Sequence record: MT968995.1
DNA from: Escherichia phage vB_EcoM_WL-3
Length of the DNA stretch: 64,000 bases
Direction: 5' to 3' (one strand)
Shown: positions 34,503 through 35,904 of the stretch, in pieces
Layout of the letters: every line of letters begins with the position of its first letter
How positions within the stretch are numbered: the first letter of the stretch is position 1
Translations under genes and position numbers: made by a program
The notes under the pieces: generated by a model
Databases searched by the model: none
What the model was told of the DNA's origin: nothing
What the model saw: the letters and a program-made list of their open reading frames with translations, nothing else

Positions 34503-34521
34503 ATTTTCCTCACTTATAATT

Positions 34522-34597
34522 GGTCGAGGCAGTAGGGATCGAACCTACGACCTAGGACTTAGAAGGTCCTTGCTCTTCCTTCTGAGCTATGCCTCGG
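34522..34597 (-). tRNA. tRNA-Arg (anticodon UCU)
   Basis: Hand-folded cloverleaf; anticodon stem-loop GGACC-UUCUAAG-UCC; TTCGATC T-loop; encoded CCA. Confidence 0.8.
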
Positions 34598-34601
34598 ATT
34601 T

Positions 34602-34676
34602 GGCGGACATGATAGGATTCGAACCTATAACCAATCGCTTAACAGGCGATCGCTCTGCCATTGAGCTACACATCCA
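34602..34676 (-). tRNA. tRNA-Asn (anticodon GUU)
   Basis: Hand-folded; anticodon arm ATCGC-CTGTTAA-GCGAT; TTCGAAT T-loop; encoded CCA. Confidence 0.7.
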
Positions 34677-34680
34677 AATT

Positions 34681-34767
34681 GGTGGGGAGTGATGGAGTCG
34701 AACCACCCGAGTCGCAATGACAATGGATTTACAGTCCACACCGCTACCTCTACGGGATAACTCCCCT
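34681..34767 (-). tRNA. tRNA-Tyr (anticodon GUA), long variable arm
   Basis: Anticodon loop CTGTAAA identical to E. coli tRNA-Tyr; TTCGACT T-loop; encoded CCA. Confidence 0.7.
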
Positions 34768-34779
34768 AATTCTTAATTT

Positions 34780-34854
34780 GGTGGCCCTGGGTGGAATTGA
34801 ACCACCATCTGGCGATTATGAGTCGCTTGCTTGAACCTTCCAGCTACAGGGCCA
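34780..34854 (-). tRNA. tRNA with anticodon CAU (Met or lysidine-type Ile)
   Basis: Acceptor GGCCCTG/CAGGGCC; anticodon loop CTCATAA; TTCAATT T-loop; encoded CCA. Confidence 0.65.
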
Positions 34855-34861
34855 AATTTTC

Positions 34862-35347
34862 TTATTTTATGTAATATTTATTTAAAAACTTTCTAGCTTG
34901 AGTATGGCTAACATTTATAGCATTTGCATAATTTTTAATAAAACCTCGTTCATCCATATTAAAACTTTCTAATATTTTTAATCGTCTAGCTATCTCATCT
35001 TGACTTAAAGTACTTGCATTATTTTTAGAAATTTTTTCTAAGGACTGTACTGAGTGTTTTCGACCATTAAAATTAAAATTTTTAGATTTTGGAGGAAATC
35101 TATCATTTAGTCTCGCATCTTTTGTATTTTGATTATTAGTTGCGCAATATATGTTATTTAATGAGTATGGTCCTTTATCACCAAAACGGCACATACAGTA
35201 TTCATGACCCTTTCTTCCACGCTTATCATAATTTCCCGTTGATTTCCACCAATGCAACCACTCATCAAAAGTTAAATTCCATTCAATGTTTCTACGTATA
35301 GCAGAATTCCGCTGAGAAATATATTTTGCATAATCTTCTTTCATCAC
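34862..35347 (-). CDS. Cys/His-rich ORF in the tRNA gap; candidate mobile nuclease-like gene
   Basis: 161 aa; A/T-rich; motif NLTFDEWLHWW...GHEYCMCRFGDKGPYSLNNIYC; occupies the slot where T4 carries segB. Confidence 0.55.
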   Translation of the reverse strand: MMKEDYAKYISQRNSAIRRNIEWNLTFDEWLHWWKSTGNYDKRGRKGHEYCMCRFGDKGPYSLNNIYCATNNQNTKDARLNDRFPPKSKNFNFNGRKHSVQSLEKISKNNASTLSQDEIARRLKILESFNMDERGFIKNYANAINVSHTQARKFLNKYYIK

Positions 35348-35391
35348 AAATTTCTCTACTTATTACATACACTAAGCTAAATCAGCAAAAC

Positions 35392-35481
35392 TGGCGGAGG
35401 CGATAGGATTTGAACCTATGAGTCGCCGGAGCGACTGCCGGTTTTCAAGACCGGTGCATTAAACCACTCTGCCACGCCTCC
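35392..35481 (-). tRNA. tRNA-Ser (anticodon UGA), long variable arm
   Basis: Anticodon arm CCGGT-CTTGAAA-ACCGG; TTCAAAT T-loop; encoded CCA. Confidence 0.8.
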
Positions 35482-35483
35482 AG

Positions 35484-35557
35484 TCTCCATACAAGGATTT
35501 GAACCTTGGACCTCCTGATCCCAAATCAGGCGCTCTACCAAACTGAGCTACACGGAG
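35484..35557 (-). tRNA. tRNA-Pro (anticodon UGG), 3' CCA not encoded
   Basis: Anticodon arm CCTGA-TTTGGGA-TCAGG; 2 nt from tRNA-Ser (dimeric precursor as in T4). Confidence 0.75.
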
Positions 35558-35567
35558 TAAATTAAAT

Positions 35568-35641
35568 TGGAGCGGATAATGAGAATCGAACTCACATCAT
35601 CAGATTGGAAGTCTGAGGTAATACCATTATACGATATCCGC
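35568..35641 (-). tRNA. tRNA-Gly (anticodon UCC)
   Basis: Anticodon arm TCAGA-CTTCCAA-TCTGA; TTCGATT T-loop; encoded CCA. Confidence 0.8.
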
Positions 35642-35646
35642 AAATT

Positions 35647-35733
35647 TGGTGCGAGAAGTGGGACTCGAACCCACAAGGAAATCATTCCGCAGCATTTTAA
35701 GTGCTGTGCCTTTACCAATTTGGCCATTCTCGC
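35647..35733 (-). tRNA. tRNA-Leu (anticodon UAA), long variable arm
   Basis: Anticodon arm CAGCA-CTTAAAA-TGCTG; TTCGAGT T-loop; encoded CCA. Confidence 0.8.
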
Positions 35734-35734
35734 G

Positions 35735-35807
35735 CTGGGAATAAAGGACTCGAACCTTTGCATCCTGGAATCAAAATCCAGTGCCTTACCAACTTGGCTA
35801 ATTCCCA
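35735..35807 (-). tRNA. tRNA-Gln (anticodon UUG), 3' CCA not encoded
   Basis: Acceptor TGGGAAT/ATTCCCA; anticodon loop TTTTGAT; 1 nt from tRNA-Leu (Gln-Leu dimer as in T4). Confidence 0.75.
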
Positions 35808-35904
35808 ATTATTAACAAAGGCTCTTAAGCAAGAACCCTTGATGATAGAGGGTATTAATCAGTGCGATATGAGTTAATAATAACAAATAATTCTTAAAGC
35901 ATAT

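What the first reader, a model, noticed from the sequence alone, without database searches (positions are those of the whole stretch)
34518..35808. tRNA repertoire differs from T4: nine tRNAs including Asn, Tyr and a CAU-anticodon tRNA
Hand folding gives a first subcluster Gln-Leu-Gly-Pro-Ser (with Gln and Pro lacking encoded CCA, as in T4 dimeric precursors) and a second subcluster CAU-Tyr(GUA)-Asn(GUU)-Arg(UCU). As I recall, T4 has Thr, Ile and Arg in the second subcluster, with no Tyr or Asn. The second subcluster therefore appears remodelled, possibly reflecting codon-usage adaptation or defence against host anticodon nucleases.
Basis: partly seen in the sequence, partly recalled or inferred. 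Interest (0 to 1): 0.5.

Follow-up and report, generated by a model that had tools for sequence, protein, structure and literature searches.

The report
Ordinary T2-type phage tRNA gene cluster
The nine tRNA genes are real, but they are the standard tRNA cluster of phage T2 and most of its relatives, published in 2008, so this is an ordinary, already-known feature, and T4 is the unusual one.

Summary
ARAGORN and Rfam find nine minus-strand tRNA genes: Gln-Leu-Gly-Pro-Ser, then a 160-aa ORF, then CAU-Tyr-Asn-Arg. Only Gln and Pro lack an encoded CCA.

The same set in the same order is annotated in phage T2 and in T2L record AJ880101 (96.9-97% DNA identity). It was described experimentally by Brok-Volchanskaya et al. 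2008.

The CAU-Tyr-Asn-Arg module covers at least 80% of the query in 377 phage records. T4's Thr-Ile-segB-Arg module does so in 123, so T4 is the minority form.

Its layout is Gln-Leu-Gly-Pro-Ser-Thr-Ile | segB | Arg.

The CAU gene is an Ile2-type (lysidine, AUA-reading) tRNA, not tRNA-Met. The net difference from T4 is therefore plus Tyr, plus Asn, minus Thr.

A 16-nt stub of tRNA-Thr remains next to the ORF, which replaced the rest of that gene.

Codon usage supports supplementation. Tyr and Asn are the two amino acids most over-used relative to E. coli, and AGA, AUA, GGA and UCA are the four most enriched codons.

Anticodon loops are identical to the host's, so nothing here points to nuclease evasion by loop mutation. 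Novelty: already known.

The parts
35734..35807 (-). tRNA-Gln (UUG). CCA is not encoded and the gene abuts tRNA-Leu, giving a Gln-Leu dimeric-precursor layout. Its anticodon arm is CUGGA-UUUUGAU-UCCAG.
   Evidence: 100% identical to ECO78, P8, RB3 and ime09, and 89% to T2 and T4.
35647..35733 (-). tRNA-Leu (UAA), CCA encoded
   Evidence: 98.9% identical to T2 and T4.
35568..35641 (-). tRNA-Gly (UCC), CCA encoded
   Evidence: 100% identical to T2 and T4.
35483..35557 (-). tRNA-Pro (UGG). CCA is not encoded and there is 1 nt before tRNA-Ser, giving a Pro-Ser dimer layout.
   Evidence: 100% identical to T2 and T4.
35392..35481 (-). tRNA-Ser (UGA). CCA is encoded here, whereas the T4 gene is followed by TAA instead.
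35371..35386 (-). 5' stub of a destroyed tRNA-Thr(UGU) gene, GCTGATTTAGCTTAGT. It matches 15 of 16 nt of nucleotides 1-16 of tRNA-Thr in P8 and T4.
   Evidence: Alignment A3.
34862..35344 (-). 160-aa ORF, a full-length version of T2L 'trna.1'. It occupies the place of tRNA-Thr. Function is unknown. It is probably a mobile gene associated with tRNA clusters and has a helical, HTH-like C-terminus.
   Evidence: (phrog_16521, unknown function). Homologues lie inside other tRNA clusters. Model pLDDT is 80-91 only for residues 110-160. No significant fold match.
34779..34853 (-). tRNA with anticodon CAU. Best read as tRNA-Ile2, a lysidine-dependent AUA decoder. CCA encoded.
34680..34766 (-). tRNA-Tyr (GUA) with a long variable arm, CCA encoded
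   Evidence: 98.9% identical to T2, 94% to a Vequintavirus gene, 85% to T5/BF23 and 69% to E. coli tyrT.
34601..34675 (-). tRNA-Asn (GUU), CCA encoded. In T2L this gene holds the preferred cleavage site of the T4 homing endonuclease SegB.
   Evidence: PMC2330249.
34521..34596 (-). tRNA-Arg (UCU), CCA encoded. It is not orthologous to T4 tRNA-Arg (63% identity).
34152..34502 (-). 116-aa ORF equivalent to T2L 'trna.2'. Function unknown.
   Evidence: phrog_3355, unknown function.
34036..34155 (-). rnaD (species 2 stable RNA), mapped by homology to T4 and T2L
33890..34029 (-). rnaC (species 1 stable RNA), mapped by homology to T4 and T2L
33817..33840 (-). Intrinsic-terminator-like hairpin (10 bp, 7 G-C pairs) followed by a T-run, downstream of rnaC. 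It is the probable end of the tRNA/stable-RNA transcription unit.

Best explanation
This is the normal T2-type tRNA gene cluster of a Tequatrovirus (a T-even phage). Nine tRNA genes and two small stable RNAs (rnaD, rnaC) lie head to tail on one strand.

By analogy with T4, they are transcribed as polycistronic precursors and cut by host RNase P and 3' trimming enzymes. Host CCA-adding enzyme would complete Gln and Pro, which sit in Gln-Leu and Pro-Ser dimers.

The tRNAs top up the host pool for codons that the AT-rich phage uses far more than E. coli does. These are AGA, AUA, GGA, UCA, UUA, CAA and CCA, read by U34 or lysidine-34 tRNAs, plus all Tyr and Asn codons. The CAU gene is an Ile2-type tRNA that host TilS would convert to an AUA reader.

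The layout differs from T4 through cassette turnover, not adaptation peculiar to this genome. A likely ancestral contiguous 10-tRNA cluster (Gln-Leu-Gly-Pro-Ser-Thr-CAU-Tyr-Asn-Arg, as in ime09 and P8) lost tRNA-Thr here when the trna.1 ORF was inserted. In T4, the segB homing-endonuclease cassette carries a different Ile and Arg.

Shown here: gene identities, order, homology, frequencies, the Thr stub and the codon statistics. Inferred: processing pathway, lysidine modification, expression, the fitness effect and the ancestral direction of change.
For: Nine tRNAs are found by two independent methods. [quoted passage not shown] Individual tRNAs are 98.7-100% identical to T2's, except Gln.

PMC2330249 describes this T2L region as non-homologous to T4 and shows that SegB drives its replacement in T4 x T2L crosses.

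The CAU-Tyr-Asn-Arg module covers at least 80% of the query in 377 phage records, against 123 for the T4 module.

Evidence that the CAU gene is Ile2-type:
- Its nearest E. coli genes are annotated tRNA-Ile. It is 82% identical to a lambdoid-prophage tRNA-Ile and 76% to ileX, against 66% to metT and 62% to metV.
- It has C4-G69 and C5-G68, and an anticodon arm identical to the prophage tRNA-Ile.
- The 100%-identical gene is labelled tRNA-Ile2 in record OP870145 and tRNA-Ile in MT682714.
- ARAGORN calls the established T4 tRNA-Ile 'Met(cat)' too, so its label does not discriminate.
- AUA is 5.8-fold enriched and AUG is depleted to 0.79-fold in phage genes.

Codon evidence: Tyr (1.81x) and Asn (1.66x) rank first and second of 20 amino acids for phage/host usage. 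AGA, AUA, GGA and UCA are the four most enriched of 61 codons. The 11 cognate codons against the other 50 give a one-sided Mann-Whitney p = 2e-4. Enrichment is stronger in the large plus-strand structural ORFs.

The Thr stub and the ORF replacement are shown.
Against: No expression, aminoacylation or modification data exist for this genome. The E. coli codon sample is only 42 genes (14,748 codons), and the phage ORF set was chosen mechanically. Among NNA codons alone the enrichment test is weak (exact p = 0.036). CAA and CCA are only about 1.5-fold enriched. Lys is as over-used as Asn (1.64x), yet no tRNA-Lys is encoded, and ACA is enriched 3.2-fold although tRNA-Thr has been lost. Codon demand therefore does not fully predict the repertoire. 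The TilS determinants (C4-G69, C5-G68) are quoted from my memory of the literature and were not checked in a paper here. The tRNA coordinates in the OP870145 annotation are offset by 383 nt from the real genes, so its Ile2 label was mapped by gene order and that constant offset.
Confidence: 0.85

Rival explanations
1. Counter-defence cassette. The extra tRNAs (Tyr and Asn, plus His in close relatives) exist mainly to replace host tRNAs destroyed by tRNA-targeting defences, such as retron-Eco7 PtuAB (tRNA-Tyr) or colicin-E5-like nucleases that cut the queuosine-family tRNAs Tyr, His, Asn and Asp. Codon compensation would then be secondary.
For: T5 tRNA-Tyr rescues phage from retron-Eco7, whose PtuAB effector depletes host tRNA-Tyr. 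Any well-expressed tRNA-Tyr works, including E. coli's own under the phage promoter (PMC11555353). The window's tRNA-Tyr is 85% identical to the T5/BF23 gene. The variable extras in this module (Tyr, Asn, His) all belong to the GUN-anticodon set that colicin E5 cleaves; that target set is quoted from my own knowledge. PMC10264068 proposes colicin E5, colicin D and PrrC as drivers of phage tRNA content.
Against: The anticodon loops of the window's Tyr, Asn, Arg and CAU tRNAs are identical to those of E. coli tyrT, asnT, argU and ileX. The signature proposed in PMC10264068, loop substitutions that block cleavage, is therefore absent. Tyr and Asn are exactly the two amino acids most over-used by the phage, so demand alone explains them. 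His is under-used (0.67x) and is absent from this window. No defence experiment has been reported for T2-type tRNAs in the papers read.
Confidence: 0.2
2. Largely neutral hitch-hiking. Differences in tRNA content between T-even phages are by-products of selfish mobile genes (segB, the trna.1 ORF, HNH ORFs) inserting into and converting the cluster. The loss of Thr and the presence of Tyr and Asn would then have little adaptive meaning.
For: SegB converts the T2L cluster to the T4 form in 99.6% of cross progeny (PMC2330249). A tRNA-Thr stub abuts the trna.1 ORF. An HNH endonuclease ORF sits where tRNA-Gln should be in OE5505. trna.1 homologues lie inside other phages' tRNA clusters. According to PMC2330249, the tRNA region is not essential for T4 development. 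ACA is 3.2-fold enriched, yet tRNA-Thr has been lost.
Against: The retained tRNAs match the most phage-enriched codons and amino acids far better than chance. tRNA sequences are 98.7-100% conserved between this window and T2, apart from Gln, while the whole region is about 97% identical. The module persists in hundreds of genomes.
Confidence: 0.3
3. The CAU gene is an elongator tRNA-Met, as labelled in AJ880101, by ARAGORN and in most GenBank records. This phage would then lack any AUA-reading tRNA-Ile.
For: ARAGORN calls it Met. AJ880101 and many other records annotate it as tRNA-Met. The 2008 paper mostly calls it tRNA-Met.
Against: Such labels follow mechanically from the CAT anticodon, and ARAGORN gives the same label to the established T4 tRNA-Ile. 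The gene is closer to ileX and a prophage tRNA-Ile (76-82%) than to metT (66%) or the initiator metV (62%). It shares their acceptor pairs C4-G69 and C5-G68 and their anticodon arm. Records OP870145 and MT682714 label the same gene Ile2 or Ile. AUG is depleted and AUA is enriched 5.8-fold in phage genes. The 2008 paper itself writes tRNA-Ile once for this gene in its Methods.
Confidence: 0.07

Closest known systems
Phage T2 / T2L tRNA gene cluster (GenBank AJ880101; NC_054931; Brok-Volchanskaya et al. 2008, PMC2330249)
   Same: Both have the same nine tRNAs in the same order, an ORF between Ser and CAU, the trna.2 ORF, rnaD and rnaC downstream, and the same tRNA-Thr stub. The 1.5-kb region is 96.9-97% identical. 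The CAU, Gly, Pro and Ser genes are 100% identical, and Leu, Tyr, Asn and Arg are 98.7-98.9% identical.
   Different: The window's tRNA-Gln carries the other, more common anticodon-arm allele (89% identity to T2). The inter-subcluster ORF is full length here (160 aa) but N-terminally shortened in T2 (133 aa). The central part of rnaD is T4-like rather than T2L-like.
Phage T4 tRNA gene cluster (NC_000866)
   Same: The first five genes, Gln-Leu-Gly-Pro-Ser, are orthologous (89-100% identity) and have the same Gln-Leu and Pro-Ser dimer layout without encoded CCA on Gln and Pro. Both carry a CAU-anticodon Ile-type tRNA and an Arg(UCU) tRNA, followed by rnaD and rnaC.
   Different: T4 has Thr and a different Ile directly after Ser, then the GIY-YIG homing endonuclease gene segB, then a different Arg (63% identity for both Ile and Arg). 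T4 has no Tyr, no Asn, and no trna.1 or trna.2 ORF. T4's Ser and Ile lack an encoded CCA. The gap in T4 (segB, between Ile and Arg) is not homologous to the gap here (trna.1, between Ser and CAU).
Contiguous 10-tRNA cluster of ime09 / vB_EcoM_P8
   Same: It has the same Gln allele, the same CAU-Tyr-Asn-Arg module (97-100% identity) and the same trna.2 ORF.
   Different: These phages keep an intact tRNA-Thr between Ser and CAU and have no inter-subcluster ORF. The window has only a 16-nt Thr stub plus the ORF.
10-tRNA clusters with His (ECO78, F26; OE5505 has 9 because Gln is replaced)
   Same: They share the window's layout, including the full-length trna.1 ORF at 98% protein identity.
   Different: They carry an extra tRNA-His(GUG) between Asn and Arg. 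OE5505 has an HNH endonuclease ORF in place of tRNA-Gln.
E. coli ileX and lambdoid-prophage tRNA-Ile(CAU) (tRNA-Ile2, lysidine-dependent)
   Same: They share the CAU anticodon, the GGCCC acceptor start with C4-G69 and C5-G68, and an identical or near-identical anticodon arm. Overall identity is 76-82%.
   Different: The D-arm and T-arm sequences differ. Modification and charging of the phage tRNA have not been tested.
T5/BF23 tRNA-Tyr (evades retron-Eco7; PMC11555353)
   Same: It is a class II tRNA-Tyr(GUA) that is 85% identical to the window's gene, and it is encoded by a virulent coliphage.
   Different: It belongs to a different phage family and a different cluster context. A counter-defence role has been shown only for T5-like phages.

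Membership tests
T2-type Tequatrovirus tRNA cluster | Gene set and order: Gln-Leu-Gly-Pro-Ser / ORF / CAU-Tyr-Asn-Arg on one strand | tested here: met
   ARAGORN on the window and on T2 gives identical lists. The AJ880101 annotation agrees.
T2-type Tequatrovirus tRNA cluster | High nucleotide identity across the whole region | tested here: met
   96.9% identity over 100% of 1501 bp to six T2 records and SV76, and 97.0% to AJ880101. Per-gene identity is 98.7-100%, except Gln at 89%.
T2-type Tequatrovirus tRNA cluster | Flanking trna.2 ORF, rnaD and rnaC downstream, within a Tequatrovirus genomic context | tested here: met
   The surrounding 22 kb is 96-98% identical to many Tequatrovirus genomes.
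T4-type tRNA cluster | segB homing endonuclease gene between Ile and Arg | tested here: not met
   The window has no segB. The ORF in its gap is unrelated and sits between Ser and CAU.
T4-type tRNA cluster | tRNA-Thr(UGU) plus T4-type tRNA-Ile and tRNA-Arg | tested here: not met
   Only a 16-nt Thr stub remains. The CAU and Arg genes are 63% identical to T4's.
tRNA-Ile2 (lysidine-34, AUA decoder) for the CAU gene | CAU anticodon with closer similarity to ileX-type than to elongator or initiator tRNA-Met | tested here: met
   82% to a prophage tRNA-Ile and 76% to ileX, against 66% to metT and 62% to metV.
tRNA-Ile2 (lysidine-34, AUA decoder) for the CAU gene | Acceptor pairs C4-G69 and C5-G68. 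These are TilS positive determinants as I recall them; elongator tRNA-Met has U4-A69 and A5-U68. | tested here: met
   The acceptor stem is GGCCCUG/CAGGGCC, whereas metT has GGCUACG. The role of these pairs is from memory and was not verified in a paper.
tRNA-Ile2 (lysidine-34, AUA decoder) for the CAU gene | Not an initiator tRNA, which would have a 1-72 mismatch and three consecutive G-C pairs closing the anticodon stem | tested here: met
   The gene has a G1-C72 pair and an anticodon stem AGCGA/UCGCC. metV has C1/A72 and GGG/CCC.
tRNA-Ile2 (lysidine-34, AUA decoder) for the CAU gene | Lysidine at position 34 and charging with Ile | not testable with these tools
   This needs mass spectrometry and an aminoacylation assay.
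Nuclease-evading phage tRNAs (PMC10264068) | Anticodon-loop substitutions relative to the host isoacceptor | tested here: not met
   The loops CUGUAAA (Tyr), CUGUUAA (Asn), CUUCUAA (Arg) and CUCAUAA (CAU) are identical to those of tyrT, asnT, argU and ileX.
Free-standing homing endonuclease (for the trna.1 ORF) | Recognisable nuclease domain (GIY-YIG, HNH, LAGLIDADG and similar) | tested here: not met
   No Pfam hit at E <= 0.1. The matching PHROG has unknown function. No PDB sequence hit and no significant fold hit. The model is unreliable for residues 41-98.
Free-standing homing endonuclease (for the trna.1 ORF) | Presence/absence polymorphism at one locus among close relatives, with disruption of the target | tested here: met
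   The ORF is present in the window, T2, ECO78 and OE5505 and absent from ime09 and P8, which have an intact tRNA-Thr there. A Thr stub lies next to the ORF. Homologues at 52-59% identity sit inside other tRNA clusters.
Free-standing homing endonuclease (for the trna.1 ORF) | Site-specific DNA cleavage and homing in crosses | not testable with these tools
   This needs purified protein and phage crosses.

The most novel reading that the evidence does not exclude
The T2-type module is a functional counter-defence cassette. Its tRNA-Tyr (85% identical to the T5 gene that defeats retron-Eco7), together with the other queuosine-family tRNAs Asn and His, would protect most Tequatroviruses against defences that deplete tRNA-Tyr or GUN-anticodon tRNAs, while T4 lacks that protection. 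T2 and T4 would then differ predictably in sensitivity to such systems. A second, smaller novelty is that the trna.1 ORF family may be an undescribed mobile element that targets tRNA genes and has no recognisable nuclease domain.
Probability: 0.2. Interest if true: 0.45.

Novelty: already known. Interest (0 to 1): 0.1.

Why it matters
It matters little as a discovery. This cluster was sequenced, annotated and experimentally dissected in phage T2L in 2008, and it is the commonest arrangement among sequenced T-even phages.

The useful outcomes are corrections:
- T4, the textbook reference, has the atypical arrangement, associated with its segB homing-endonuclease cassette.
- The widespread database label 'tRNA-Met' for the CAU gene is probably wrong. 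It is Ile2-type and would read AUA.
- The two-subcluster look of T2-type phages comes from an ORF that destroyed tRNA-Thr and is not homologous to T4's gap.

The cluster could serve as a natural test bed. T2-type phages, T4 and the 10-tRNA relatives could be compared to weigh codon compensation against tRNA-depleting defences.

Tried and rejected
1. I asked whether the CAU and Arg genes are diverged orthologues of T4 Ile and Arg. I rejected this because both are only 63% identical, while the first five tRNAs are 89-100% identical.

2. I treated the window's odd tRNA-Gln anticodon arm as a possible novelty. I rejected this because it is the majority allele, at least 99% identical in 289 records including RB3, RB51 and AR1.

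3. I tried to assign a function to the inter-subcluster ORF.
- Pfam gave nothing and the matching PHROG has unknown function.
- PDB sequence searches with a single sequence and with a profile gave only noise.
- hhalign against the OE5505 HNH endonuclease gave 8% probability, limited to the C-terminal HTH-like tail.
- AlphaFold on a 4-sequence alignment gave mean pLDDT 61, with residues 41-98 below 50.
- Foldseek against the PDB gave no hit with E < 0.6.
- My impression of NUMOD3-like and HTH motifs is from memory and remains untested.

4. The weak PHROG hit to 'decoy of host sigma70' (E = 0.0035, no stretch passing on its own) was ignored as noise.

5. The sub-threshold Rfam hits (Plastid-ycf2, sX4, YrlA) overlapping the tRNAs are artefacts of tRNA-like structure.

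6. The promoter scan found no more sigma-70-like sites than in shuffled sequence (6 vs 7.7 expected), so I do not claim any promoter.

7. A literature search for comparative statements on T2 tRNA-Asn and tRNA-Tyr beyond the 2008 paper found nothing relevant.

Three paper queries failed on term syntax.
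Full report
OBSERVATION. ARAGORN finds exactly nine tRNA genes in the 64-kb window. All are on the minus strand between 34521 and 35807. In order of transcription they are Gln(UUG), Leu(UAA), Gly(UCC), Pro(UGG) and Ser(UGA), then a 538-bp gap, then CAU, Tyr(GUA), Asn(GUU) and Arg(UCU). Rfam's tRNA model independently scores eight of them at 60-72 bits, against a gathering score of 29. The class II tRNA-Tyr is caught by the related tRNA-Sec model. Only Gln and Pro lack an encoded CCA, and they abut Leu and Ser with gaps of 0 and 1 nt.

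WHAT IT IS. A megablast of the region against 50,697 phage records hits 848 of them. The full-length matches include six phage T2 genome records (96.9% identity over 100% of the query). They also include AJ880101, a 2371-bp record titled 'Enterobacteria phage T2L tRNA gene cluster' (97.0%). Both T2 annotations list the same nine genes in the same order. They show an ORF ('trna.1') between Ser and CAU, an ORF ('trna.2') after Arg, and then the stable RNAs rnaD and rnaC. ARAGORN run on the T2 locus gives the same list as on the window. The window has all of these parts. The trna.2-like ORF is at 34152-34502. By alignment to T4 and T2L, rnaD is at about 34036-34155 and rnaC at about 33890-34029. 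A strong terminator-like hairpin lies at 33817-33840. The surrounding 22 kb is 96-98% identical to many Tequatrovirus genomes. Per gene, the window is 98.7-100% identical to T2 except for tRNA-Gln.

THIS IS PUBLISHED. Brok-Volchanskaya et al. 2008 (PMC2330249) sequenced the T2L, RB1 and RB3 tRNA regions. [quoted passage not shown] They note that this non-homology had already been seen in T4/T2L heteroduplexes by Kim and Davidson. They show that the T4 homing endonuclease SegB cuts preferentially inside the T2L tRNA-Asn gene. In T4 x T2L crosses, segB is inherited by 99.6% of progeny. The roughly 1250-bp T2L segment encoding 'tRNA-Met', Tyr, Asn, Arg, trna.1 and trna.2 is almost completely excluded.

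HOW IT REALLY COMPARES WITH T4. The reference T4 record has Gln-Leu-Gly-Pro-Ser-Thr-Ile, then segB, then Arg, rnaD and rnaC. The first five genes are orthologous to the window's (89-100% identity). The window's CAU and Arg genes are only 63% identical to T4 tRNA-Ile and tRNA-Arg. The segment after Ser is thus a different cassette, as the 2008 paper says. T4 is also the minority form. The window's CAU-Tyr-Asn-Arg module covers at least 80% of the query in 377 phage records. T4's Thr-Ile-segB-Arg module does so in 123. Both counts include repeated lab strains and are approximate.

THE CAU GENE. ARAGORN and most GenBank records call it tRNA-Met, but that label follows from the anticodon alone. 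ARAGORN gives the same label to the T4 gene that the T4 record annotates as tRNA-Ile. Several lines point to an Ile2-type tRNA:
- **Nearest host genes.** A blastn of the window's gene against 5,426 E. coli genomes finds genes annotated tRNA-Ile as the best matches. The best is a lambdoid-prophage tRNA-Ile next to antiterminator Q.
- **Identity values.** They are 82% to that prophage gene and 76% to ileX, against 66% to metT/metU and 62% to the initiator metV.
- **Structure.** It shares the ileX-type acceptor stem (GGCCC..., with C4-G69 and C5-G68). Its anticodon arm is identical to the prophage tRNA-Ile, and it lacks initiator features.
- **Other annotations.** The 100%-identical gene in record OP870145 is labelled 'tRNA-Ile2 (CAT)', and MT682714 labels it tRNA-Ile. 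The tRNA coordinates in OP870145 are offset by 383 nt from the real genes, so I matched its label by order and that constant offset.
- **Codon demand.** AUA is 5.8-fold more frequent in the window's genes than in the E. coli sample, while AUG is less frequent at 0.79-fold.

I conclude with about 90% confidence that this is a lysidine-dependent AUA decoder, the functional counterpart of T4 tRNA-Ile. The net repertoire difference from T4 is then plus Tyr, plus Asn, minus Thr.

ORIGIN OF THE TWO SUBCLUSTERS. Close relatives show modular variants.
- ime09 and P8 have a contiguous 10-tRNA cluster, Gln-Leu-Gly-Pro-Ser-Thr-CAU-Tyr-Asn-Arg, with no ORF.
- ECO78 and F26 have the window's layout plus tRNA-His between Asn and Arg.
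- OE5505 has the same layout, but an HNH endonuclease ORF sits where tRNA-Gln should be.

I aligned the Ser-to-CAU interval of the window, T2, P8 and T4. Right after tRNA-Ser, the window and T2 keep GCTGATTTAGCT(T/C)(A/G)GT, which corresponds to the first 16 nt of tRNA-Thr. This stub is at window 35371-35386 on the minus strand and matches 15 of 16 nt. After it, the sequence switches to the ORF cassette. The gap in this window was therefore made by an ORF that replaced most of tRNA-Thr. It is not homologous to T4's gap, which is segB between Ile and Arg.

The ORF is 160 aa from its ATG and is full length here, whereas T2's copy is N-terminally shortened to 133 aa. I could not assign it a function:
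- It has no Pfam domain and belongs to a PHROG of unknown function.
- It has only three homologous clusters among 5.8 billion proteins.
- The two distant homologues (52-59% identity) both lie inside the tRNA clusters of other T4-like phages. One sits in a 13-tRNA cluster.
- The structure model is confident only for a helical C-terminal region, and no fold match is significant.

Its behaviour is that of a mobile gene associated with tRNA clusters, but its biochemistry is unresolved.

HOW IT MOST LIKELY WORKS. By analogy with the classical T4 system (established knowledge, not tested here), the cluster is transcribed as precursors. Host RNase P and 3' exonucleases cut these, and host CCA-adding enzyme completes Gln and Pro. 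The functional rationale was tested by codon counting. I compared 88 mechanically selected window ORFs (18,521 codons) with 42 annotated E. coli K-12 genes (14,748 codons).
- Tyr (4.71% vs 2.60%, 1.81x) and Asn (6.24% vs 3.77%, 1.66x) are the two amino acids most over-represented in the phage.
- The four most enriched of all 61 codons are AGA (9.7x), AUA (5.8x), GGA (3.8x) and UCA (3.7x). Each is the Watson-Crick cognate of a tRNA encoded here. UUA is enriched 3.0-fold.
- The 11 cognate codons against the other 50 give a one-sided Mann-Whitney p = 2e-4. Among the 14 sense NNA codons alone, the exact p is 0.036.
- The 14 large plus-strand structural ORFs, used as a proxy for late genes, use the cognate codons even more heavily. 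For example, GGA is 31, UCA 26, AGA 15 and AUA 16 per 1000.

The fit is imperfect. Lys is as enriched as Asn but has no phage tRNA. ACA is 3.2-fold enriched although Thr was lost. CAA and CCA are only about 1.5-fold enriched.

THE DEFENCE-EVASION RIVAL. Published work shows that T5 tRNA-Tyr rescues phage from retron-Eco7, whose PtuAB effector depletes host tRNA-Tyr (PMC11555353). Another paper proposes that phage tRNAs evade anticodon nucleases through loop mutations (PMC10264068). In this window, the anticodon loops of the Tyr, Asn, Arg and CAU tRNAs are identical to those of tyrT, asnT, argU and ileX, so the loop-mutation signature is absent. Supply-type rescue remains possible. The window's tRNA-Tyr is 85% identical to the T5/BF23 gene, and in that study any strongly expressed tRNA-Tyr rescued. 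I give this about 0.2 as a significant additional role. A third, non-exclusive view is that much of the variation is collateral to selfish-gene traffic. The loss of Thr, the segB conversion and the HNH ORF in place of Gln all fit it. That view is well supported for Thr.

VERDICT. The feature is the ordinary, already-described T2-type tRNA cluster. Novelty is 'already known' and interest is low. The by-products worth recording are the probable mislabelling of the CAU gene as tRNA-Met across databases, the tRNA-Thr stub, the tRNA-cluster-associated ORF family of unknown function, and the near-identity of the CAU and Tyr genes to those of an unrelated Vequintavirus.

Noticed in passing
window 35371-35386 (-): A 16-nt remnant of tRNA-Thr (GCTGATTTAGCTTAGT, 15 of 16 nt matching tRNA-Thr in P8 and T4) lies directly after tRNA-Ser. 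The rest of the gene is replaced by the trna.1 ORF cassette. T2 has the same stub. I did not see the stub mentioned in the passages of the 2008 paper that I read.
   Followed up: yes
window 34862-35344 (-); L019:3001-3465; L020:1760-2251: The inter-subcluster ORF (T2L 'trna.1') belongs to a very small family with three clusters in 5.8 billion proteins and no Pfam domain. Its distant members (52-59% identity) also sit inside the tRNA gene clusters of other T4-like phages. T2's copy is N-terminally truncated (133 vs 160 aa). It may be an undescribed mobile element that targets tRNA genes. The fold could not be resolved (pLDDT below 50 for residues 41-98).
   Followed up: partly
window 35734-35807 (-): Two alleles of tRNA-Gln(UUG) circulate in Tequatroviruses and differ across the whole anticodon arm. 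The window has CUGGA-UUUUGAU-UCCAG, whereas T4 and T2 have UAGCA-CUUUGAC-UGCUA. The stem is fully compensated and loop positions 32 and 38 change. The window's loop equals that of E. coli glnU. The window's allele is the majority form, with 289 records at 99% identity or more.
   Followed up: partly
window 34779-34853 and 34680-34766 (-); L018:604-677 and 1163-1248; L017:405-492: The CAU gene is 97% identical and tRNA-Tyr 94% identical to genes of Vequintavirus phage pangalan, which belongs to an unrelated family. tRNA-Tyr is also 85% identical to the T5/BF23 gene, but only 69% to E. coli tyrT. These tRNA genes appear to form a pool exchanged among virulent coliphage families.
   Followed up: partly
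L013:3029-3637 (phage OE5505, NC_054926): An annotated HNH endonuclease ORF occupies the position of tRNA-Gln, which ARAGORN does not find in that phage. This is another case of a mobile endonuclease gene replacing a tRNA gene in this cluster.
   Followed up: no
window 34779-34790 (-) vs L003 (T4 tRNA-Ile 5' end): T4 tRNA-Ile and the T2-type CAU tRNA share their first 12 nt (GGCCCTGTAGCT) exactly and then diverge to 63% overall identity. In both P8 and T4 this gene sits 1 nt after tRNA-Thr. The shared start could mark a recombination boundary of the cassette exchange, or it could reflect shared identity elements.
   Followed up: no
window 35392-35394 (-) vs T4 tRNA-Ser 3' end: tRNA-Ser and the CAU tRNA encode their CCA ends here and in T2. 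The T4 Ser and Ile genes do not; they are followed by TAA and TAT. Dependence on the host CCA-adding enzyme should therefore differ between T2-type phages and T4.
   Followed up: partly
window 34036-34155 (-): The central part of rnaD in the window matches T4 rather than T2L, although the flanking tRNA module is T2-type. The mosaicism therefore reaches down to about 100-bp scale.
   Followed up: no
window 33756-33941 and 33947-34096 (-); L014 (OP870145): The mechanical ORFs of 61 and 49 aa overlap rnaC and rnaD and are almost certainly not genes. Separately, the tRNA feature coordinates in GenBank record OP870145 (phage F26) are offset by 383 nt from the actual tRNA genes.
   Followed up: partly
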